From the NCBI GenBank assembly GCA_000092065.1, contig CP000597.1: a stretch of 64,000 bases of DNA. One strand, given 5' to 3'. The DNA is from Ostreococcus lucimarinus. Its lineage: Eukaryota. Under the pieces are notes generated by a model, which was not told the DNA's origin, did not search any database, and saw only the letters and a program-made list of their open reading frames with translations. Shown here in pieces: positions 48,896 through 58,447 of the stretch (position 1 is its first letter; each line of letters begins with the position of its first letter). The position numbers were made by a program, and so were the translations under genes.

Positions 48896-50515
48896 ATGCG
48901 CGAGCGACGGCTGGGGACGAGCGATGGGACGACGACGCGCGAGGACTTTGGGGCGGATCGATTGCTGATCGACGTGGCGAATTACGTCGTCGGGTACGAG
49001 ATCAAGTCGAGGGACGCGGTGAAGACGGCGAGGCACGCGATAATGGATTTCGTCGCGTGCGCGCTGCGGGGAGGAAGCGATCCGGGGTGCGCGAAATTAC
49101 TCGGACCGTGCGTGCCGGGAATCGAGTGCAAGCACGGAGCGCACGTGCCGGGGACGGAGTATTATCTCGATCCCGTGACGGCGACGTTTAACGCGACGAC
49201 GTGCGCGCGGTGGTTGGATTACAACGATTCGTTTTACGGCGCGGAGTGGGCGCATCCGAGCGACACGATTGGGGCGATTTTGAGCGTCAGCGAGTACGTC
49301 AGTCGATTGAGGAACGATCGCGGGCTGAGCGTGCTGAGCATGCGAGACGTCATCGTGGCGACGATCAAGGCGTACGAAATCGTCGGCGTGCTCGCGCTCG
49401 AGAACTCGTTCAATCAGATTGGCGTCGATCACGGACTGTTGACTCGCGTCGCCGTGGCCGCAGTGACGACGTCCATGCTCGGTGGTGGGCGATTAGAGGT
49501 GATGTACGCCACTTCGCAGGCTTTCATCGACGGCAGCGGTTTGCGATGCTTCCGACATTACCCGTGCGCGGGGACGCGAAAGGGTTGGGCGGCGGGAGAT
49601 AACGCCGCCCGAGGCGTCACTTTAGCGTTGATGACGATGAGAGGCGAAATAGGATATCTTGGTGCGCTGTCAGCGCCGGTTTGGGGATTCAACGACGTGT
49701 TTTACCGGCGTCAAGACATCGTGCTCAAGCGAGACTTTGGGGAATTCGTCATGGAAAACGTCGTCTTCAAGCCGTCGTTTCCGAGCGAGATTCACGCTCA
49801 AACCGCCATCGAGGCCGCGTTTCGATTGCATCCGCAAGTCGTCCACCGCGTGGACGAGGTTCACAGCGTCGCGGTTCACACCACACGTAGCGCTGTACGA
49901 TGCATCGATAAGACCGGGCCGCTGAACGGGCCCGCGGATCGCGATCACTGCTTGCAGTACGCCGTCGCCGTCGCGCTCCTGTACGGGAATATGACATCAG
50001 ATCATTACGAAGACTCCGTGGCGAGCGACCCGCGAGTGGATGAAATGAGACGCAAAATTCTCATCGCAGAAAATCCACAATACAGCGCCGATTACGTTGA
50101 TCCAGATCGCCGTTCTTGTTCGAATTCGATTCAAGTGCACTTTAAGGATCGCACGAGCACGAACAAGTTTGAGGTCGAGTACCCAGTTGGACATCGTCGC
50201 AGAAGAATGGAGGGGTTTCCAGCGTTAGAAAAGAAGTTCATATCGTCTTTACACACAAAGTTTCCACCGGAGCGTGCGGGATTCATCTTTGAACGAGTCA
50301 CCGACGCGCAAATTTTCGACGCCTTGACACCGATGGACTTCATGGAATTGTTCAACGCCACGCCGCATCCCGTGCTCTTACCGCCGATGCGCGCGGCACC
50401 TGGAGTTTTTGATTACACTCCGATAGATAGTCGAGCGTCGACCCTAGTTCCTCGTCTCACGGATGGTACCGCAGAGACTCGAGCGGTGGGAGACGGCGCA
50501 GACGCGCGCGGTTAG
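48896..50515 (+). CDS. MmgE/PrpD family protein (2-methylcitrate dehydratase / cis-aconitate decarboxylase family)
   Basis: Full-length similarity to PrpD architecture (N-terminal helical domain ...DFVACALRGGSDPG...; C-terminal ...HSVAVHTTRSAV...). 539 aa is typical. Confidence 0.75.
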   Translation: MRERRLGTSDGTTTREDFGADRLLIDVANYVVGYEIKSRDAVKTARHAIMDFVACALRGGSDPGCAKLLGPCVPGIECKHGAHVPGTEYYLDPVTATFNATTCARWLDYNDSFYGAEWAHPSDTIGAILSVSEYVSRLRNDRGLSVLSMRDVIVATIKAYEIVGVLALENSFNQIGVDHGLLTRVAVAAVTTSMLGGGRLEVMYATSQAFIDGSGLRCFRHYPCAGTRKGWAAGDNAARGVTLALMTMRGEIGYLGALSAPVWGFNDVFYRRQDIVLKRDFGEFVMENVVFKPSFPSEIHAQTAIEAAFRLHPQVVHRVDEVHSVAVHTTRSAVRCIDKTGPLNGPADRDHCLQYAVAVALLYGNMTSDHYEDSVASDPRVDEMRRKILIAENPQYSADYVDPDRRSCSNSIQVHFKDRTSTNKFEVEYPVGHRRRRMEGFPALEKKFISSLHTKFPPERAGFIFERVTDAQIFDALTPMDFMELFNATPHPVLLPPMRAAPGVFDYTPIDSRASTLVPRLTDGTAETRAVGDGADARG

Positions 50516-50617
50516 CAACGCTTCGGCGACACCCCTTGTTGTAATGGTAGCATGAAACACGAACGCGAGCCGTCAGCGATTGAGTTTGCGCCAAGCAATC
50601 GAAACGACGCGATTTAG

Positions 50618-50654
50618 TGATGCGATTCAGTGATGCGATTCAGTGATGCGATGG
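50618..50654. repeat. 13-bp tandem repeat (GTGATGCGATTCA)x3 in the 3' region of the PrpD-family gene
   Basis: direct reading. Confidence 0.85.
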
Positions 50655-50788
50655 CTAAAAAACGATGAAGTAATGATCACTTCCGTGACAAGTCAGATAA
50701 CAACTCTGAAGCTCCTCGCTTTTTTCAGCGAGAGCGTAACTACCCTCCGCTAACGGCTAATAGTAATATCGTTCCTTAGGGTAAATAT

Positions 50789-51651
50789 TTACCCTTGGAC
50801 TTGGCGCTGGTCAACGGCGCACGCAGCTTCGGACGCCGGGCGGTGAGCCAAGAACGCGGAGCATTGCACTTGCTTGATGTTGTCGAAGCCAGCGACGCGG
50901 ACGTAGCATTCCGGGAAGCACTTGATGCAGGTGTTGATTTCCGCAATGACTTCATCCGGGTTTTGGCAGCCGTACATGGGGAGCTTCCACATAACCCAGT
51001 AACGGTTGTCGTAGTAACCGGCGTTGATGGAGGTGTCCATGTTCGCCCAGCCGTGGCCGTCGGTGTACGCGTGCGCGGAGTCTTCGAACTCGATGCACGG
51101 GGTCCAGCCGTTGTTCAACAAGTATTGCACTTGCTTGGAGATTTCGGCGTCGGAGAGCGGCGGCAAGAAGGAGAAGGTCTCGAACATCCTGCGTGACGAC
51201 GTAAAAACGAAGCGAAATCGGTCAGTACAGCGCTCGCGCGCGTCGTTCGGACCCTCGTCGGTGACCGAGTTAAAACCCTAAAACCCAATAACCCAGCGCG
51301 CGTTCCTGACCGCACGATCGCCGCCGAACGAGCCCTCGCGCGCACCCCCCACGCCGACCCCTCGCACCGCGATCGCGGGCGTTAAAACGTCGAAGAAGAA
51401 CTTTCTTCAACGAAATATCGCCCTCGCGGCGTCGTCGAGGCGCGCGCGCGCGCGCAGAGGTCGCGCAACGTTCGCGCGATGCGGCGCTATCCTCTCGCGA
51501 AAGATACGCGAAGGTTCGATCGATCGCGCGCGTTCACGTACTTGTTGCCGTGCGGGCGCCAGATCATCATGGACTTGGCGTTGGCGACCTTGCCGGTGGT
51601 GACGGCGACGGTCTTCGCGACTTGCGCGGAAGCTTGGGTGATGGCGGACAT
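50789..51651 (-). CDS. rbcS: RuBisCO small subunit, copy A (exon 1 51542..51651, intron 51189..51541, exon 2 50789..51188)
   Basis: Exon 2 = MFETFSFLPPLSDAEISKQVQYLLNNGWTPCIEFE...YYDNRYWVMWKLPMYGC...VRVAGFDNIKQVQ, canonical rbcS. Exon 1 (MSAITQASAQVAKTVAVTTGKVANAKSMMIWRPHGN) is a transit peptide plus the conserved MxxW...NK motif. GTACGT donor and ...CACGCAG acceptor rejoin ...GNK|MFETF in phase 2. Confidence 0.9.
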
Positions 51652-51716
51652 GATTGCGTGCGTGTGGATTAGTGCGGCGCGCGCGCCGCGCGCGCGCGTC
51701 GGGGCGGCGCGAGGTG

Positions 51717-51731
51717 CCGAATGTCCGAATC
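51717..51731 (+). promoter_or_regulatory. copy of the recurrent motif CCGAATGTCCGAATC, ~185 bp upstream of rbcS copy B ATG, in the shared divergent promoter of rbcS A/B
   Basis: direct reading. The same 13-mer core occurs at 6899, 56041 and 58426, all on the + strand. Confidence 0.4.
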
Positions 51732-51914
51732 ACGATCGCCCGCCCCTTAAAACGTATTCCAATCGTCTCTACAACTATATGATTTCGATTTTGACGGGAT
51801 AATCTCGACGAGATAAATTCGAGCGCGCGTTTTCGCGCGAATCGTGTGGATTTGCTGACTCGGTGCCGATCACGCGAGGGCGTCGGCACTTTCCAGCACG
51901 CTTATCTCGAAATC

Positions 51915-52806
51915 ATGTCCGCCATCACCCAAGCCTCCGCGCAAGTCGCGAAGACCGTCGCCGTCACCACCGGCAAGGTCGCCAACGCCAAGTCCATGAT
52001 GATCTGGCGCCCGCACGGCAACAAGTACGTGAACGCGCGCGCGCGACGGGACGCGAACGTAATCCGAAAAAGCGACGCGCGCGGATTGCTCGGCCGGTCG
52101 TGAAGAAGGGGTCTTCGAGGGGCGCGCGAGGGCGTCGTGACGCGCGCGATGAATGAAAAAGATGCCTGAAGTTTTTATGCATCGGATCGTCAGCGCGCGG
52201 TGGGCGTCGCGCGTCGACGCGAGCGTCGGCACGGGGTTCGAGTGAGCCCCCCCAGGGGGGAGGCCTCCGAGATCCATCGTAACCGCCTTCGGAGATTTCT
52301 TCTTTAATTTTCCTCGCGACGCGTGGTTGCGCGTTGAAATCGACGGAAAACGATGCACAGAATAATTACTGACCCGATTTCGCTTCGTTTTTACGTCGTC
52401 ACGCAGGATGTTCGAGACCTTCTCCTTCTTGCCGCCGCTCTCCGACGCTGAAATCTCCAAGCAAGTGCAATACTTGTTGAACAACGGCTGGACCCCGTGC
52501 ATCGAGTTCGAAGACTCCGCGCACGCGTACACCGACGGCCACGGCTGGGCGAACATGGACACCTCCATCAACGCCGGTTACTACGACAACCGTTACTGGG
52601 TTATGTGGAAGCTCCCCATGTACGGCTGCCAAAACCCGGATGAAGTCATTGCGGAAATCAACACCTGCATCAAGTGCTTCCCGGATTGCTACGTCCGCGT
52701 CGCTGGCTTCGACAACATCAAGCAAGTGCAATGCTCCGCGTTCTTGGCTCACCGCCCGGCGTCCGAAGCTGCGTGCGCCGTTGACCAGCGCCAAGTCCAA
52801 GGGTAA
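51915..52806 (+). CDS. rbcS: RuBisCO small subunit, copy B (exon 1 51915..52024, intron 52025..52406, exon 2 52407..52806)
   Basis: Same exon sequences as copy A (one Glu/Asp difference in exon 2), GTACGT donor, CACGCAG acceptor. Confidence 0.9.
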
Positions 52807-53417
52807 ACGTCTCGACGTTTCCTGCGAACGCCCGCGCGCGTCTGTAGACGCGCGCTGCCGCGGACTCACGCTCGTGTAGAGATGTAGTCCTATTGAATTA
52901 CATACGAAGACTTCACGTCACTTCACGCGTTAACGCTTCGCCCTCGCCCTCGCGCGTCGCGCATCTCCGGACGCTCTCTCTCCCTCTCGCGCGGACCGAC
53001 CGCCGCGCAGCACACCCGGTCGTAACCGTTCCATTTGACCGTTCCAATCCCTTCTCGAACGCGCGCGAAGATTTTCCGAGATCGAGGACTCGCCGCGGTT
53101 CGCGACTCAAGAAATCTAGATCACGCCGTGAGATCTTCGCCCGCCGTCGTTTCCGCCACACGTTTCCGCGCCGCCGGGCGAAAATGAGGCTTTAGGGTTT
53201 ACGCGCGTCGTATGGGCAAACAGTTCGCGAGCACTCTGCGTAGGCCCCCTGAAGGGGGCTTTTTCCTCTATTTTCTTACATACAGCTTACATAATTTATA
53301 ATACAGAGAAGATCCCATATAAAGTACATCACGAATACGAATACGAACGCCCTCACAACCCCCTGACGCGCGCGCCGCCGCGGCCGAGCGACATAATCGC
53401 ACGCGTATCTCGAGATC

Positions 53418-54537
53418 ATGTCTGCCATCACCCAAGCCTCCGCGCAAGTCGCGAAGACCGTCGCCGTCACCACCGGCAAGGTCGCCAACGCCAAGTCCAT
53501 GATGATCTGGCGCCCGCACGGCAACAAGTACGTATAGTTTACGACGTGTTTCGACGCGATCGCGCGCCGCGTCCGATCGCGCCGCATCCGACGCCCCGAG
53601 GGACGATCGTCGTCGTGTTCGCGCGCGTCCGCGCGCGCGTCGCCGACGCGATCGCGGTCGATCTCTTCGATGATTTTCATCGCATCGATCGCGACGCGCG
53701 AAAGCGGCGCGCGCGCAACGTGGACGCGTGCGAACCGTCGATCACGGCGCGGTCGCGGGGTGATCGGATAAGCGCGAAAACCCAAACGCGAAAACCCAAA
53801 CGGGAACCCGAGCGGGAATTTTCGGGTGTTTGCGTCGAACGGCGCGGCGTTCGACGATTTAGCGTGCGCGATGATTTGTGCATCGTCGAGTCGGGCGTCG
53901 AGACGTCGAGACGTCGTCGCCGCGCGCGCGGCGGGGTCGGTCGGCGCGCGGATCATCCGTAGATTATCATCGACCGGACGATCGGCCGTCGACCGACCTT
54001 TGAATGCTCGGCGCGGGAGGGTGTTTCGTACTCGGGTCGGACGCGGTCCACGAGCGACGTCACGGTTGGGCGAGCGTAGAAGACTCGCGCGAGCGCTGTA
54101 CTGACCGATTTCGCTTCGTTTTTACGTCGTCACGCAGGATGTTCGAGACCTTCTCCTTCTTGCCGCCGCTCTCCGACGCCGAAATCTCCAAGCAAGTGCA
54201 ATACTTGTTGAACAACGGCTGGACCCCGTGCATCGAGTTCGAAGACTCCGCGCACGCGTACACCGACGGCCACGGCTGGGCGAACATGGACACCTCCATC
54301 AACGCCGGTTACTACGACAACCGTTACTGGGTTATGTGGAAGCTCCCCATGTACGGCTGCCAAAACCCGGATGAAGTCATTGCGGAAATCAACACCTGCA
54401 TCAAGTGCTTCCCGGATTGCTACGTCCGCGTCGCTGGCTTCGACAACATCAAGCAAGTGCAATGCTCCGCGTTCTTGGCTCACCGCCCGGCGTCCGAAGC
54501 TGCGTGCGCCGTTGACCAGCGCCAAGTCCAAGGGTAA
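53418..54537 (+). CDS. rbcS: RuBisCO small subunit, copy C (exon 1 53418..53527, intron 53528..54137, exon 2 54138..54537)
   Basis: Exons identical to copy B apart from a synonymous change in codon 2. The intron is 610 nt and unrelated in sequence except for the last ~40 nt. Confidence 0.9.
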
Positions 54538-54695
54538 ACGTCTCGACGTTTCCTGCGAACGCCCGCGCAAGTCGACTCAACTCAGTATTATGAAGATTTT
54601 TTCCATTTGATTTACGTAGGAAATTGCTTTGTCTGTCATAATGAGATGCATACTTACATATTAAAATGTCCCCGAATTTCTCGACGCGACTCGGA

Positions 54696-55997
54696 TCAGC
54701 GAAGCTCGCCGAGCGCCGCACGCGAGAAGACTGCCCGTGTGCTCTCGTCGCCCGCGCATACCTCTGACGAACTCGAGTCGTCGGAATTTTTGCTGAAGTC
54801 TAATGGTAATGTCAGTTCTAAGTGTCTCTTCGCGCCTGAGTATTTGAATTTGAAATCAAACGTGCGTCGAGAACGTTCACGAAGCTCGCGCTTGCCCACG
54901 ACGGCGGCGCTCGGCGGCGTCCCGGTGGTTACGACCCAACTCCGCGCTCGCTCGACGTCTCGGAGCTGCATCGTCGCCAACTCGTCCTGGCTTAAAGGCT
55001 GAGCTGTGATGGGTTTATGATTCAACCAAACGTTCACGAGGAACGTCACGCGCTTAGACGACTGCGGCGTACCGCGCGCGAACTCACTCGGGGCGCCGTG
55101 CAAGAACCGTCCGTCAAATGTGATTTGCTTCCCCCACTTTGGCCACGAAACGACGCACTCGGTGATATCACCGCACACCCCGACGTCGCCGTTTTCGTAA
55201 TCACAATTCACCTTCGTCGGACGGTTCACGACCACCGTCGGCGTCCCTCCGTCGCAAAAGTACGTCACCGTGCCGAGTTGCGGATGCGCGTTGACGCCCG
55301 CGCCCTCGAGGGCGTAGTCTTTGTCCCAGTGCCACCCGATCTCATCACCCTCATCGATGACTTGCGTCCACCACTCGGCGCCCGATTTCGAGGGATCATA
55401 CCTCGCTCTCTCGTCTTCGTCGCGCGCGCCGGCGTCTCGTTCCGCGCGCGCCGCGGCTTCGCGCGTCGCCCTTCGAAACGTCTCTCGCGCTAAATACTCG
55501 AGCGCGCACCTCGGTTCGCTCTCGGCGTTCACCCAAAACGTCCTCCCACTCGACGTCCCGCTCGTCCTTCTCTTCCCTCTCGCATTTTTCGCCGTGTGCG
55601 CCGCCTCGCAATCCTTCGTCAACCGCCTCGCGTCGTCGTCGTCGAGCGCGTCTCGCCCCGCGAACGTCGTCGCGCTCGTCGTCTCGTACGTCAGGTATCG
55701 GTTCACTTCGCACGCGATTCGTCCGAGTTCATCCACCGCGAGTTCGAGCTCGGACGTCGCGCTCGCGTCGTCGTCGCTCTCGTCGCTCTCGTCGCTCTCG
55801 CTCTCGCTCTCGCTCTCGCTCGTCGTCGCCTCGCGCGCGTCGTTCGCGCGCCTCGTCCGTCGCGTCGTCATCCGCGCCTCGTCGTCGCGTCGTCGACGTC
55901 GCGCGTTCGCCGCCCCGCGTCGCGCGCGCCGGTCGCCCGACGCGCGACGGGCGTCGCGCGTTCGCCGCGTCGACGGCCGCCGGGCTCGAGCGCGCAA
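54696..55997 (-). CDS. hypothetical protein with a 2OG-Fe(II) oxygenase/cupin-like motif pattern (GWHWDKDY ... RFLHG ... R..F.VNVW) and an N-terminal (SE)n/(SDE)n acidic repeat
   Basis: 1.3 kb codon-biased ORF. HxD...H...R spacing read directly; family not assigned. Confidence 0.5.
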   Translation of the reverse strand: MRARARRPSTRRTRDARRASGDRRARRGAANARRRRRDDEARMTTRRTRRANDAREATTSESESESESDESDESDDDASATSELELAVDELGRIACEVNRYLTYETTSATTFAGRDALDDDDARRLTKDCEAAHTAKNARGKRRTSGTSSGRTFWVNAESEPRCALEYLARETFRRATREAAARAERDAGARDEDERARYDPSKSGAEWWTQVIDEGDEIGWHWDKDYALEGAGVNAHPQLGTVTYFCDGGTPTVVVNRPTKVNCDYENGDVGVCGDITECVVSWPKWGKQITFDGRFLHGAPSEFARGTPQSSKRVTFLVNVWLNHKPITAQPLSQDELATMQLRDVERARSWVVTTGTPPSAAVVGKRELRERSRRTFDFKFKYSGAKRHLELTLPLDFSKNSDDSSSSEVCAGDESTRAVFSRAALGELR

Positions 55998-56061
55998 GCG
56001 GACCCGAATACCACTAAAGCGTAGCGCTGTATACTCATACCCGAATGTCCGAACATCCGCG
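55993..56061 (+). repeat. ~70-bp dispersed repeat, copy 1 (ends with CCGAATGTCCGAACATCCGCG), ~240 bp upstream of the PiT gene ATG
   Basis: About 90% identical to 58377..58447: GCAAGCGGACCC(G/A)AATACCACTAAAGC(G/A)TAG..CT.TATACTCATA(C/T)CCGAATGTCCGAACATCCGCG. Confidence 0.8.
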
Positions 56062-56302
56062 TGAAAGTGCTACACTTTGTCAGGAAAATGTCGATTCACA
56101 GTCGATTCACAGTTGATGAACATTGCAACAAGTTGCAAAAATCGAGTTCGATTGGAACCAATCGCGTCTTCTTTCGAGGTTCACGAACCGTGAATTCGTT
56201 CCGCGAGGAATATTCTCGGAATCTCGCCTTTTCAAATTCCCGCGTGGGAATATGCGCAGTCGCCGCAAGAACACGTCGCGCGCCGTCTCGTCACGCACAA
56301 CG

Positions 56303-58052
56303 ATGAGCTCTTCGGATGCGCTCGCTCAAGCGTCCCGCCACCTTTTGGCCGGCGCTACTGAAACCAAGAGATTCGAATGGATCGTCGTTTGCGGCGGTTT
56401 CCTCGCCTTCTTCGCCGCCTTTGGCATCGGTACGCACACGATGCGCGCACTTTTTACCTTTCGCGTTCATAGGCTTTAATGACACGGCTTGGTCGCACAC
56501 GTGCGATTGGAGTGTATTAGAAGCATCACTGACGTCGTGCGATCAATCGTATTTACCTACAGGTGCCAACGACGTCGCGAATGCGTTCGCCACCTCTGTC
56601 GGGTCCGGCGCGTTGACCATTAAAAACGCTGTAGTCCTCGCCGCGATCTTTGAATTCTGTGGTGCCATGTTCATGGGCGGTCACGTCGTCAACACAATTC
56701 GCAAGGGCATTGCTAACCAGAAATGCTTCGCCGGTACCGGTGGTGCCAACGATCCCGGCCTCTTGATGTACGGCTGCCTATGCGTCATTTTTGCCGTCGC
56801 CATCTGGCTCGTCGTCGCATCTGCCTTCGAAATGGCCGTCTCCACGACGCACTCGTGCGTTGGTGGTATGATTGGAATGACTTTGGTCGCGCGTGGTAGC
56901 GAGTGTGTCATTTGGACCAAGAAAGCGGACGAATTCCCGTACGTCAAAGGCGTCGTCGCCGTCATCATCTCCTGGCTCTTGTCCCCGGTCATCTCTGGCG
57001 CCTTTGCGTTCGTCTTCTTCGTGACCCTGCGTACTCTCGTCATGCGTTCCGAACATTCTTATTCTCGTACTGCCGTCGCGTTCCCAGTGTTGCTTGCGTG
57101 CACTCTCATCATCAACATCTTCTTCATCGTGTACAAGGGCGCCAAGTTCCTTGAGCTCGACGACACACCGGTCGGTACGGCGTGCGCCATCGCGTTCGGC
57201 ATCGGCGGAGGATGTGGCATTGTTGCGTACTTCTTCGTTACCCCTTACATCCTCAAGACGACCGATGAGCTCTTCGAGAAGCAACAGCTCGAAAAGGCGG
57301 AGCGTGGTTCGGGCAAGAAGGCCGAAGAGAAGGTCGTCCGTCAACCGCGCGAGTATCCTGTCGGGGTCTTTGGCGCGCCGCGTCGCATGTGGTACGCTCT
57401 GCAAGATCATCTTGAATCTTCACTCACCCACAAGGCTGAAGACATTCTTGACGAAGACATGGCTGTATTGGCGATCCACGAAAACGCCGAAAAGTTTGAC
57501 GAAAAGACTGAACTTTGCATGCGATACTTGCAAATCCTCACCGCGTGCTGCGACTCGTTCGCGCACGGCGCCAACGATGTGGCCAACTCTATCGGTCCCT
57601 TCGCCTCTATGGTAGTCGTCTTCAAGAGCGGTAAAGTTTCGAAGGAAGCTGAAATGGGCGACGATTCATATTGGATTCTCGGTCTTGGCGCTGCCGGCAT
57701 CGTCTGTGGCCTCGCCTTGTACGGCTACAAGATTCTTCACGCTCTCGGTACCAAGATTGCCAAGCTCACCCCGAGTCGCGGTATCTGCATCGAGCTTGGT
57801 GCGGCTTGCGTCATCATCATGGGATCCCGTCTCGGCTGGCCGCTGTCTACCACTCACTGCCAAGTTGGTGCCACCGTCGGCGTCGCCCTACTCGAAGGCC
57901 GCAAGGGCATCAACTGGTTCATCATCGGTAAAACTGTGTTCGGCTGGATCATCACCCTCGTCATCGTCGGCTTCTCCACGGCGGCGTTCTTCGCACAAGG
58001 TGCCTACGCTCCGATGAAGAGCTACCCGTGCTACATCACAGGTAGTTGCTAA
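56303..58052 (+). CDS. PiT-family inorganic phosphate transporter (exon 1 56303..56429, intron 56430..56562, exon 2 56563..58052)
   Basis: Two PiT signature motifs GANDVANAF (at the exon junction) and HGANDVANSIGP, with about 10-12 TM segments. Exon 1 (MSSSDALAQASRHLLAGATETKRFEWIVVCGGFLAFFAAFGIG) lies in a different frame (ORF 56123..56479). GTACGC...CCTACAG intron (133 nt, phase 1) recreates ...AFGIGANDVANAF. Confidence 0.85.
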
Positions 58053-58376
58053 ATGGGCCCTCCTAGCTTACCCCCTCCCTAGGTTACCCCCGACGGAGTT
58101 ATTCTTTGAATACTCTCGGTGTTTTTCCCGCTATTGATAGCGATGAGATTCTCGACAAATTCGCGTTCAGTGGGGTCTGAAAATTTGCCGTCGCCCACGA
58201 GAGCGTCGAATTGCTCCGCCAACGTCCGTCGAATTGCTCCGCCAACGTCAGCGATGGCGCGCCTGTGCGAGAGAATTCAGACTCAACAATACTTCGCGCG
58301 CGCGCTGTTTTGGTTCCAACCGGAGCCGCACGGATCAATTGCACACCGCGTAATCGCCCTGAGTGGTATCGATACC

Positions 58377-58447
58377 ACGCAAGCGGACCCAAATACCACT
58401 AAAGCATAGTACTATATACTCATATCCGAATGTCCGAACATCCGCGC
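58377..58447 (+). repeat. ~70-bp dispersed repeat, copy 2, ~95 bp upstream of ORF 58542
   Basis: see copy 1. Confidence 0.8.

What the first reader, a model, noticed from the sequence alone, without database searches (positions are those of the whole stretch)
51189..54137. rbcS introns share position and phase but not sequence: a signature of concerted evolution of exons
All three rbcS copies have a single phase-2 intron splitting ...GNK|MFETF... with a GTACGT donor and a ...TTTTTACGTCGTCACGCAG acceptor tract. The intron bodies are 353, 382 and 610 nt and are unrelated in sequence apart from the last ~40 nt. The copy A and C introns share a further ~20 nt (CAGCGCTCGCGCG..CTGTACTGACCGATTTCGC) that copy B lacks. 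Exons are >99% identical. This pattern is what exon-focused gene conversion among paralogues would produce. The conserved 3' intron tail may contain the branch point (CTGAC) and polypyrimidine signals.
Basis: seen in the sequence. Interest (0 to 1): 0.55.

Follow-up and report, generated by a model that had tools for sequence, protein, structure and literature searches.

The report
Concerted evolution of three rbcS genes
Three neighbouring copies of the Rubisco small-subunit gene in the marine green alga Ostreococcus lucimarinus keep almost identical coding sequence by copying patches of DNA from one another, while their introns have drifted apart; this is a clean but ordinary example of a long-known process.

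Summary
The window is Ostreococcus lucimarinus CCE9901. It carries three rbcS genes: A on the minus strand, B and C on the plus strand. Each has one phase-2 intron at the same codon, of 353, 382 and 610 nt.

- **Exons:** they differ at 2-3 of 510 nt.
- **Introns:** the bodies are no more alike than shuffled sequence. Only the last 39-56 nt and the first 6-17 nt are shared.
- **Splicing:** four intron-less transcript contigs confirm the splice junction.

The interpretation, gene conversion that homogenises the exons, is supported by new comparative evidence.

- **Sister lineage:** at about 90% non-coding identity, intron B, the B-C spacer and the start of intron C align end to end at 91-94%. 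So the distinct introns predate that split. Yet exon 2 differs from all three window copies at the same 17 sites.
- **Synonymous divergence:** it is 0.019 within the genome and 0.23-0.50 between species.
- **Other lineages:** the same pattern recurs in at least four other Mamiellales lineages, including Bathycoccus. One relative has homogenised introns too.
- **Intron tail:** it is species-specific, so conversion keeps it uniform, not constraint. Only ACTGAC(C) and a variably pyrimidine-rich stretch are conserved.

This is a new instance of a known phenomenon, of modest interest.

The parts
50789..51188 (-). rbcS copy A, exon 2 (400 nt including the stop)
   Evidence: tblastn; 100% complementary to exon 2 of C over a 457-nt inverted repeat (I1)
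51189..51541 (-). rbcS copy A intron (353 nt, GTACGT...CAG). Only the first 17 nt (with B) and the last 39-56 nt (with B and C) are shared.
51542..51651 (-). rbcS copy A, exon 1 (110 nt)
   Evidence: transcript contig L004 matches 100% including the 5' leader of A
51652..51914 (.). 263-nt divergent spacer between the start codons of A and B (presumed bidirectional promoter). Not homogenised.
51915..52024 (+). rbcS copy B, exon 1
52025..52406 (+). rbcS copy B intron (382 nt). Collinear and 92.2% identical to the orthologous intron of sister lineage L026.
52407..52806 (+). rbcS copy B, exon 2
   Evidence: protein identical to XP_001422165.1
52807..53417 (.). B-C spacer (611 nt). The first 31 nt are shared with the 3' flank of C, and the last 19 nt with the leader of B. 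The rest is unique, and 91.3% identical to the sister lineage.
53418..53527 (+). rbcS copy C, exon 1
53528..54137 (+). rbcS copy C intron (610 nt). Its first 284 nt are 94.4% identical to sister lineage L026, and its last 182 nt about 98% identical (3 differences) in population contig L013.
54138..54537 (+). rbcS copy C, exon 2
52367..52406 (+). Homogenised intron 3' tail of copy B (TACTGACCCGATTTCGCTTCGTTTTTACGTCGTCACGCAG). The equivalents are 51189-51244 in A and 54082-54137 in C, which share 56 nt. It contains the ACTGAC branch-point consensus, with the branch A 34-35 nt from the 3' splice site.
   Evidence: O. lucimarinus branch-point consensus ACTGAC in PMC2483917
54538..54568 (+). 31-nt stub downstream of the stop codon, identical between B (52807-52837) and C. 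It marks the 3' end of the B/C homology tract. A shares nothing beyond its stop.
48896..50515 (+). Context: single-copy 2-methylcitrate dehydratase (PrpD) gene, convergent with copy A. Used as synteny anchor and neutral-rate yardstick.

Best explanation
The three rbcS paralogues of Ostreococcus lucimarinus evolve in concert through repeated short-tract DNA-to-DNA gene conversion, that is, non-reciprocal homologous recombination between copies lying within 3.75 kb.

Each event copies a patch from one paralogue into another. The patch ends where homology ends, so the homogenised blocks are:
- exon 1 plus 3-19 nt of leader and 6-17 nt of intron (119-139 nt);
- exon 2 plus 39-56 nt of intron tail and 0-31 nt of 3' flank (434-470 nt).

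The intron bodies and spacers escaped conversion long ago and are now too different to be included. They evolve as independent, slowly diverging orthologous lineages.

Purifying selection on an abundant protein, together with very strong codon bias, keeps the exons similar enough to remain substrates for conversion. It probably also favours identical copies.

**Shown:** the anatomy, the splicing, the age of the intron lineages, and homogenisation after speciation.

**Inferred:** the molecular pathway (heteroduplex formation or synthesis-dependent strand annealing, with mismatch-repair rejection of diverged sequence) and the role of selection.
For: **Within the window**
- The exons are 99.4-99.6% identical. 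The intron bodies score at shuffle level.
- The ends of the homology blocks differ from pair to pair (A/B 139 and 434 nt, A/C 119 and 457 nt, B/C 135 and about 470 nt), as expected of separate conversion events.

**The duplication is old**
- The orthologous intron B, the B-C spacer, the head of intron C and the 3' flank of A are 91-94% identical and collinear in sister lineage L026/L027.
- The body of the L005 copy-C intron aligns to the introns of another species, L006 (score 128 against null 24 +/- 3), but not to its own paralogues.
- Layout and neighbouring genes are shared.

**Homogenisation is recent**
- 17 fixed exon-2 differences between the window and the sister lineage are each shared by all sampled paralogues within a lineage.
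- dS is 0.019 within the window against 0.23-0.50 between species.

**It is not constraint**
- Intron heads and tails are species-specific but identical among paralogues in four species.
- The sister's intron-B tail carries a 6-nt deletion and two substitutions within its last 40 nt.
- Intron C changes at an ordinary rate between strains (3 of 182 nt in L013).

**The pattern is general**
- Exon 2 is 97-100% identical with unrelated intron bodies in L005/L032, L035/L038, L060/L063/L064 and Bathycoccus L007/L074.

**Homogenisation appears to be ongoing**
- The sites that distinguish the copies in the reference are not fixed in wild contigs. Position 280 of exon 2 in copy A is A in some contigs and T, the B/C state, in others.
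Against: - No conversion event is observed directly.
- With only 2-3 differences per pair, no formal GENECONV-type test is possible inside the window.
- Metagenome and transcriptome assemblies cannot phase a 400-nt identical repeat. The sister-lineage 'copy A' exon 2 (L027) is joined to a B-type intron, so only the sites within read length of the unique flanks are securely assigned to a copy (positions 355-397 next to the 3' flank of A).
- Strong codon bias lowers rbcS dS between species: 0.4, against saturation in the adjacent PrpD gene. Selection therefore accounts for some of the similarity.
- Yamada et al. 2019 (PMC6859733) found no conversion signal in angiosperm rbcS and preferred a birth-and-death model, so the mechanism is not universal for this family.
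Confidence: 0.88

Rival explanations
1. Recent duplication (birth and death). The three copies arose very recently, and the introns and flanks then diverged rapidly or were replaced.
For: Within-genome dS is only 0.019. Copy number varies among relatives: four copies in L006. Birth-and-death is the favoured model for angiosperm rbcS (PMC6859733).
Against: - A recent duplication would have copied the introns and flanks, yet these are at shuffle level.
- Introns B and C and the spacers have collinear orthologues at 91-94% in a sister lineage whose exon 2 differs at 17 shared sites.
- Intron C changes at an ordinary rate between strains.
- Copy A is inverted, which unequal crossing-over cannot produce.
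Confidence: 0.03
2. Selection alone. These are ancient paralogues kept identical by purifying selection on the protein and on codon usage, with no sequence exchange.
For: rbcS codon usage is extreme: Ser TCC 10 of 10, Gln CAA 9 of 10, GC3 0.85. Between-species dS is 0.4 where the neighbouring PrpD gene is saturated.
Against: - The same selection acts between species, yet dS there is 12-26 times higher than within the genome.
- Non-coding intron ends and UTR stubs are identical within genomes and different between them.
- The 17 lineage-specific changes, including silent ones, are shared by paralogues.
Confidence: 0.04
3. RNA- or cDNA-templated homogenisation. Abundant spliced rbcS mRNA, or its cDNA, serves as the repair template and overwrites the exons only.
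For: - rbcS is very highly expressed: the transcript contigs have coverage of 200-490x.
- Homogenisation is close to exon-limited.
- Intron-less rbcS contigs exist (L011, L016).
Against: - The identity runs 39-56 nt into the intron 3' end and 6-17 nt into its 5' end, and these are absent from spliced RNA.
- B/C identity stops 31 nt past the stop codon, although the 3' UTR of B extends at least 113 nt.
- A spliced template would tend to delete the intron, which every genomic copy keeps.
- L016 is an assembly chimera with a bacterial tig-clpP operon, so the intron-less contigs are probably transcripts.
Confidence: 0.03
4. Independent intron gains. Unrelated introns, for example introner-like mobile elements, inserted separately at the same proto-splice site AAG|G in each copy.
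For: - The intron bodies are unrelated, while position and phase are identical.
- Introner families exist in the related genus Micromonas (PMC4540971 and PMC3879977, listed).
Against: - The same intron position occurs in every copy of every lineage examined, including Bathycoccus, so the intron is ancestral.
- No intron body has a copy elsewhere in the 64-kb window beyond (CG)n-rich low-complexity matches.
- In L006 all the introns are homologous, and one L005 intron is homologous to them.
Confidence: 0.02

Closest known systems
Concerted evolution of plant rbcS families, e.g. the tomato RBCS3A/3B/3C tandem array (Pichersky & Cashmore 1986 and Sugita et al. 1987, as cited in PMC6859733)
   Same: Clustered rbcS paralogues within a species resemble each other more than they resemble orthologues. 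Gene conversion and/or selection have been invoked. The coding sequence is homogenised preferentially.
   Different: - Here there is a single intron, in a green picoalga with a compact, intron-poor genome.
- One copy is inverted.
- The age of the duplication is fixed by orthologous introns in a sister lineage, which separates conversion from birth-and-death. Yamada et al. 2019 could not do this for angiosperms.
- Details of the divergence of the tomato introns are from my memory only.
Chlamydomonas reinhardtii RBCS1/RBCS2 pair (Goldschmidt-Clermont & Rahire 1986; from my own knowledge, not retrieved here)
   Same: Green-algal rbcS genes that lie close together, with introns at the same positions, near-identical coding regions, and diverged introns and UTRs.
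   Different: Chlamydomonas has two direct copies with three introns each. The present locus has three copies, one of them inverted, with one intron each. I did not find any published description of the Ostreococcus or Bathycoccus case.
Sequence-dependent gene conversion and escape models (Walsh 1987; Teshima & Innan 2004; Mano & Innan 2008, the last cited in PMC6859733)
   Same: These models predict what is seen here. Selected segments stay similar and keep converting. Neutral segments accumulate mismatches and indels, fall below the homology needed, and escape permanently.
   Different: This is a theoretical framework, not a locus. The present data illustrate both states: introns escaped in most lineages, and re-homogenised in L006.
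Human fetal globin genes HBG1/HBG2, whose conversion tract is bounded by a simple repeat in an intron (Slightom et al. 1980; from my own knowledge)
   Same: A conversion tract ends inside an intron, next to simple alternating sequence. Here the A/B identity ends inside a (CG)n run 17 nt into the intron.
   Different: The organism and gene family differ. Whether (CG)n runs terminate tracts here is untested.

Membership tests
RuBisCO small subunit (Pfam PF00101) | The protein matches the RuBisCO_small domain and a known RbcS entry. | tested here: met
   All close homologues carry PF00101. The B/C protein is identical to XP_001422165.1 / UniRef100_A4SA22 'Ribulose bisphosphate carboxylase small subunit, chloroplastic' of O. 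lucimarinus CCE9901.
Concerted evolution by interlocus gene conversion | Paralogues within a genome are more similar to each other than to orthologues in related species. | tested here: met
   Within-window identity is 99.4-99.6% (dS 0.019). Between species it is 76-88% (dS 0.37-0.50 for the window; 0.23-0.50 overall). There are 17 fixed exon-2 differences from the sister lineage.
Concerted evolution by interlocus gene conversion | The duplication predates the species split, shown by orthologous copy-specific sequence or synteny. | tested here: met
   Copy-specific intron B, the B-C spacer, the head of intron C and the 3' flank of A are collinear at 91-94% in L026/L027. The A(-) B(+) C(+) layout and the neighbouring genes are shared with L005 and L006. 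The L005 C-type intron is homologous to the L006 introns.
Concerted evolution by interlocus gene conversion | Homogenisation includes silent and non-coding positions, so protein-level selection is not sufficient. | tested here: met
   Intron heads and tails, the 5' leader and the 3' stub are identical among paralogues but specific to each species.
Concerted evolution by interlocus gene conversion | Homology tracts are discrete, and their end points differ between pairs of copies. | tested here: met
   Tract ends are A/B -7 to intron +17 and intron -40 to the stop; A/C -3 to +6 and -56 to the stop; B/C -19 to +6 and -40 to stop +31.
Concerted evolution by interlocus gene conversion | A statistical conversion test (GENECONV/RDP) on aligned paralogues is significant. 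| not tested
   There are only 2-3 variable sites per pair and the introns cannot be aligned, so the test has no power within the window. It needs phased multi-strain data.
Concerted evolution by interlocus gene conversion | Transfer of sequence between copies is observed directly. | not testable with these tools
   This requires mutation-accumulation lines or marked copies. The only hint is that the sites distinguishing the copies are polymorphic in wild contigs, which is open to assembly artefacts.
Birth-and-death / recent tandem duplication | Introns and flanks are co-duplicated and about as similar as silent exon sites. | tested here: not met
   Intron bodies and flanks are at shuffle level.
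Introner / repeated-intron families | The intron sequence recurs at many other loci in the genome. | tested here: not met
   Only (CG)n-rich low-complexity matches occur elsewhere in the 64-kb window. The rest of the genome was not searched.
Intron-hosted non-coding RNA (e.g. snoRNA) | The intron matches an Rfam family. | tested here: not met
   No match reaches the gathering score in 50400-55000. The best is E = 0.17, to unrelated bacterial families.

The most novel reading that the evidence does not exclude
The cluster may be a recombination hot spot where the identical exon-2 repeats mediate reciprocal exchange as well as conversion. Wild O. lucimarinus populations would then carry structural isomers.

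Two metagenome contigs from different samples show the two reciprocal junctions expected from an inversion between the inverted exon-2 repeats of A and C:
- L018: intron A, exon 2, then the 3' flank of C.
- L019: intron C, exon 2, then the 3' flank of A and PrpD.

L022 (intron B, then the flank of C) and L027 (intron B, then the flank of A, in the sister lineage) show further non-reference joins. Such isomers would keep all three genes intact while swapping their 3' UTRs and flipping copy B.

Misassembly across a 400-457-nt perfect repeat explains the same contigs equally well.
Probability: 0.2. Interest if true: 0.45.

Novelty: new member of a known kind. Interest (0 to 1): 0.3.

Why it matters
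Concerted evolution of rbcS is a textbook idea, but it has recently been questioned for flowering plants, where paralogues that cluster by species were attributed to birth-and-death turnover (PMC6859733).

In the Mamiellales loci, each copy carries its own old intron as a built-in lineage marker. That separates the two models cleanly: the copies are old and the exon identity is young.

Ostreococcus is haploid and has a tiny genome. From my own knowledge, it is also amenable to gene targeting by homologous recombination. The locus could therefore serve as a simple natural system for measuring conversion rates, tract lengths and the homology threshold for escape.

There is also a practical consequence. 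Short-read assemblies and transcript assemblies of this locus are prone to chimeras, and several were seen here.

Tried and rejected
1. **Mobile or repeated intron bodies (introners).** BLAST against the rest of the window gave only (CG)n-rich low-complexity matches. Rejected.
2. **Intron-hosted RNA genes.** The Rfam scan found nothing credible.
3. **Hidden protein genes in the introns or spacers.** The long ORFs are GC-rich noise with no Pfam match.
4. **Orthology of the window introns with L005, L006 or Bathycoccus introns.** Scores were at background. These species are too distant: dS in the adjacent PrpD gene is saturated. The sister lineage L026/L027 was needed.
5. **Intron-less contigs L011 and L016 as evidence of intron loss or retrocopies.** L016 is a chimera with a bacterial tig-clpP operon, so such contigs are probably transcript-derived. 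The flanks of L011 align to nothing. Left undecided.
6. **Mosaic transcript contigs (L001-L003) as evidence of conversion.** They combine a C-type 5' end, an A-type site 390 and the 3' UTR of B or A. This is not usable, because short reads cannot phase 510 nt of near-identical CDS.
7. **Extending from PrpD contigs into the cluster (L014, L015).** The assemblies break at the first rbcS exon.
8. **Literature.** No paper was found describing rbcS concerted evolution in Ostreococcus, Bathycoccus or Micromonas. Pichersky & Cashmore 1986 is not held. A search for Chlamydomonas RBCS1/2 with gene conversion returned nothing.
9. **A first attempt to translate PrpD used the wrong frame**. Corrected via the ORF listing.
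Full report
**What is there**

Three copies of a 510-nt rbcS coding sequence lie in window 50789-54537.
- Copy A, minus strand: exon 1 51651..51542, intron 51541..51189, exon 2 51188..50789.
- Copy B, plus strand: 51915-52024, 52025-52406, 52407-52806.
- Copy C, plus strand: 53418-53527, 53528-54137, 54138-54537.

A and B are head to head, with 263 nt between their start codons. B and C are in tandem, 611 nt apart. tblastn finds no further copy in the window.

Exon 1 is 110 nt, so the intron sits after the second base of codon 37 (AA|G), which is phase 2. The introns are 353, 382 and 610 nt. All start GTACGT and end TTTTTACGTCGTCACGCAG.

**Identity of the sequence**

The B/C protein is identical to XP_001422165.1, and the upstream 2-methylcitrate dehydratase (48896-50515) to XP_001422164.1. 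Both are from Ostreococcus lucimarinus CCE9901, on a 366-kb record. Homologues carry Pfam PF00101.

Four intron-less ENA contigs (L001-L004) contain the predicted junction GGCAACAAG|ATGTTCGAGACC. They carry the copy-specific leader of A and the 3' UTRs of A and B. The intron is therefore spliced as predicted, and at least A and B are expressed.

**Checking the observation**

The exons differ at 3 (A/B), 3 (A/C) and 2 (B/C) of 510 positions. Each difference is private to one copy, and one is a Glu/Asp replacement in A.

Intron similarity:
- All three introns share their last 39-40 nt, with local score 73 against about 20 +/- 2.7 for shuffles.
- A and C share 56 nt exactly.
- A and B also share their first 17 nt.
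- With the ends removed, the bodies align no better than dinucleotide shuffles. Semi-global z is 1.0 for A/B and 0.6 for B/C. A/C is marginal at z = 2.35, driven by a (CG)n-rich stretch.

Outside the genes, only B and C share anything: 19 nt before the ATG, with two mismatches, and 31 nt after the stop.

**What the introns are not**

- They have no copies elsewhere in the window beyond low-complexity (CG)n matches, so they are not introner-type repeats.
- They match no Rfam family.
- Their long ORFs have no Pfam match.

**Comparative evidence from distant relatives**

L005 is a 16-kb metagenome contig with 62% GC. It has the same A(-) B(+) C(+) layout and the same downstream neighbour.

L006 is syntenic on the PrpD side and has four copies. 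It is a 1x-coverage assembly with frameshift errors.

L007 is Bathycoccus prasinos (exact protein match CAL6439285.1) and has three tandem copies.

In all of them the intron is at the same position and phase.

The intron score matrix and the end alignments show that the 5' and 3' intron ends are identical among paralogues but differ between species. Across species, only ACTGAC(C), with its branch A 34-43 nt from the 3' splice site, and a variably pyrimidine-rich stretch (68-94% of positions -34 to -4) are conserved. CTTAC takes the place of CTGAC in Bathycoccus. ACTGAC is the published branch-point consensus of O. lucimarinus (PMC2483917).

Intron bodies are unrelated among paralogues in the window, L005 and Bathycoccus. 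In L006 all four introns are 92-97% identical throughout. The body of the L005 copy-C intron aligns to the L006 introns (score 128, null 24 +/- 3), but not to its own paralogues. Intron lineages can therefore be older than species, and whole-intron homogenisation can also happen.

A scan of 80 further metagenome loci shows the same state in at least two more lineages, L035/L038 and L060/L063/L064: exon 2 97-100% identical, intron bodies unrelated.

**Divergence**

Nei-Gojobori dS is 0.019 among the window copies, 0.05 within L005, and 0.02-0.05 within Bathycoccus. Between species it is 0.23-0.50.

The adjacent single-copy PrpD gene is saturated at silent sites between the same species (pS 0.61-0.81). 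rbcS codon usage is extreme: Ser TCC 10 of 10, Gln CAA 9 of 10. So rbcS silent sites are constrained, which explains why exons stay alignable between species whose introns and spacers do not. That constraint acts equally between species, so it cannot produce a 12- to 26-fold lower dS within a genome.

**The decisive comparison**

Contigs L026 and L027 come from a sister lineage about 90% identical to the window in non-coding DNA. Orthologous segments are collinear:

| Segment | Identity to the window |
|---|---|
| B upstream region | 89.2% |
| Intron B, over its full length | 92.2% |
| B-C spacer | 91.3% |
| First 284 nt of intron C | 94.4% |
| 3' flank of A | 91.3% |

The three-copy cluster, with its different introns, therefore existed before this split.

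Yet the sister's exon 2 differs from all three window copies at the same 17 positions (4.25%). The two sister exon-2 sequences, one next to the 3' flank of B and one next to the 3' flank of A, differ from each other at one position. Substitutions fixed after the split have therefore been spread across paralogues in one or both lineages. That is concerted evolution in the strict sense.

One caveat applies. L027 joins a B-type intron to the flank of A, so short-read assembly cannot phase the middle of exon 2. The differences within read length of the unique flanks (positions 355-397) are secure.

The sister's intron-B tail has a 6-nt deletion and two substitutions in its last 40 nt. The tail is thus not tightly constrained, and its identity across A, B and C in the window reflects conversion tracts running into the intron.

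**Population hints**

Same-species contigs (98.5-99.6% identity) show two things.
- Intron C evolves at an ordinary rate: 3 of 182 nt in L013.
- The sites that distinguish the copies in the reference are not fixed. Wild B copies carry C, not T, at exon-2 position 43. Wild A copies carry either A or the B/C-type T at position 280.

This is what ongoing exchange predicts, but assembly artefacts cannot be excluded.

**Mechanism**

The best explanation is repeated short-tract DNA-to-DNA gene conversion among the three copies, inverted copy A included.

Tracts end where homology ends, and the end points differ from pair to pair. Selection on the protein and on codon usage keeps the exons similar enough to remain substrates. 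Neutral intron bodies and spacers accumulated indels and mismatches, escaped conversion, and are now excluded. This escape feedback is established theory (Walsh 1987; Teshima & Innan 2004), cited here from my own knowledge. L006 shows that the process is not intrinsically limited to exons.

The rival explanations fare as follows:
- A spliced-RNA template is unlikely. The identity runs into both intron ends, and it stops 31 nt into a 3' UTR that is at least 113 nt long.
- Selection alone is excluded by the species-specific but paralogue-identical non-coding segments.
- Independent intron gain is excluded by the ancestral position of the intron and the absence of repeats.

**Relation to what is known**

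Concerted evolution of clustered rbcS genes has been proposed since the 1980s (tomato: Pichersky & Cashmore 1986 and Sugita et al. 1987, cited in PMC6859733). From my own knowledge, the Chlamydomonas RBCS1/2 pair shows the same contrast between coding sequence and introns.

Yamada et al. 2019 found paralogues clustering by species in angiosperms but no conversion signal, and favoured birth-and-death.

I found no description of the Ostreococcus or Bathycoccus case. The finding is a new, unusually clean member of a known kind, and a specialist would not be surprised by it.

**Verdict**

Interest is 0.3.

Noticed in passing
L018 1-2342 and L019 1-2453 (window equivalents 50788-51646 / 54079-55995 and 53579-54538 / 49282-51248); also L022 and L027: Metagenome contigs from different samples join intron A to exon 2 to the 3' flank of C (L018), and intron C to exon 2 to the 3' flank of A and PrpD (L019). 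These are the two reciprocal junctions expected from an inversion between the 457-nt inverted exon-2 repeats. L022 joins intron B to the flank of C, and L027 (sister lineage) joins intron B to the flank of A. They may be real structural isomers, or misassemblies across a perfect repeat.
   Followed up: partly
window 50909 (copy A, exon-2 position 280; equivalents 52686 in B and 54417 in C) and 52449 (copy B, position 43): The only amino-acid difference among the copies (GAA Glu in A, GAT Asp in B and C) is polymorphic in wild contigs of copy A. L021 and L023 carry A. L020, L024 and L025 carry the B/C-type T. The private T of copy B at position 43 is C in wild B copies.
   Followed up: partly
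L006 6672-11166: This relative has four rbcS copies (one inverted, three tandem). Their introns are about 400 nt and 92-97% identical along their full length, unlike every other lineage examined. The contig has 1x coverage and frameshift errors.
   Followed up: partly
L011 298-804; L016 1959-2468: These are intron-less rbcS sequences in JGI contigs. L016 is fused to a bacterial trigger factor-ClpP operon, so it is an assembly chimera of an mRNA. L011 lies convergent with PrpD, as copy A does, but has 297 nt of unrelated upstream sequence and no head-to-head B copy. Whether it is a transcript or a genuine intron-less gene is undecided.
   Followed up: partly
window 52444-52449 (copy B, exon-2 positions 38-43); L012 88-93; L026; L027: The sister lineage has a clustered change, GACGCT to CCGGCG. 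This replaces Asp with Pro in the conserved LSDAE motif. The same patch occurs in L012, whose exon 2 is otherwise window-type. That is a short mosaic patch, suggestive of a small conversion or recombination tract between lineages.
   Followed up: no
window 52247-52260 and 53243-53264: There are two G/C hairpins. CCCCCCCAGGGGGG lies inside intron B and is partly conserved in the sister lineage: five of the seven Cs and all the Gs are retained. GGCCCCCTGAAGGGGGC, followed by TTTTT, lies about 440 nt downstream of the stop of copy B, in the B-C spacer. Their function is unknown.
   Followed up: no
window 50606-50652: Three tandem copies of a 13-nt unit (GATGCGATTCAGT-like) lie in the 273-nt spacer between the convergent PrpD and rbcS A genes (family D8).
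   Followed up: no
window 55996-58421 versus L018 2342-2506: L018 is collinear with the window up to 55995 and resumes at 58422. About 2.4 kb of the window is therefore absent, or replaced by about 160 nt, in that wild contig.
   Followed up: no
window 51525-51541, 52025-52046 and 51676-51700: The identity of the A/B intron heads ends inside an alternating (CG)n run, and the A-B spacer begins with a long (CG)n tract. Simple alternating sequence next to tract ends recalls the repeat-bounded conversion tract of the human gamma-globin genes. Untested.
   Followed up: no
window 48896-50515 versus 50789-54537: rbcS silent-site divergence between Ostreococcus lineages is 0.37-0.40, whereas the adjacent PrpD gene is saturated (pS 0.61-0.81). 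rbcS uses CAA, TCC, TTG and GGC almost exclusively, which points to very strong translational selection.
   Followed up: yes
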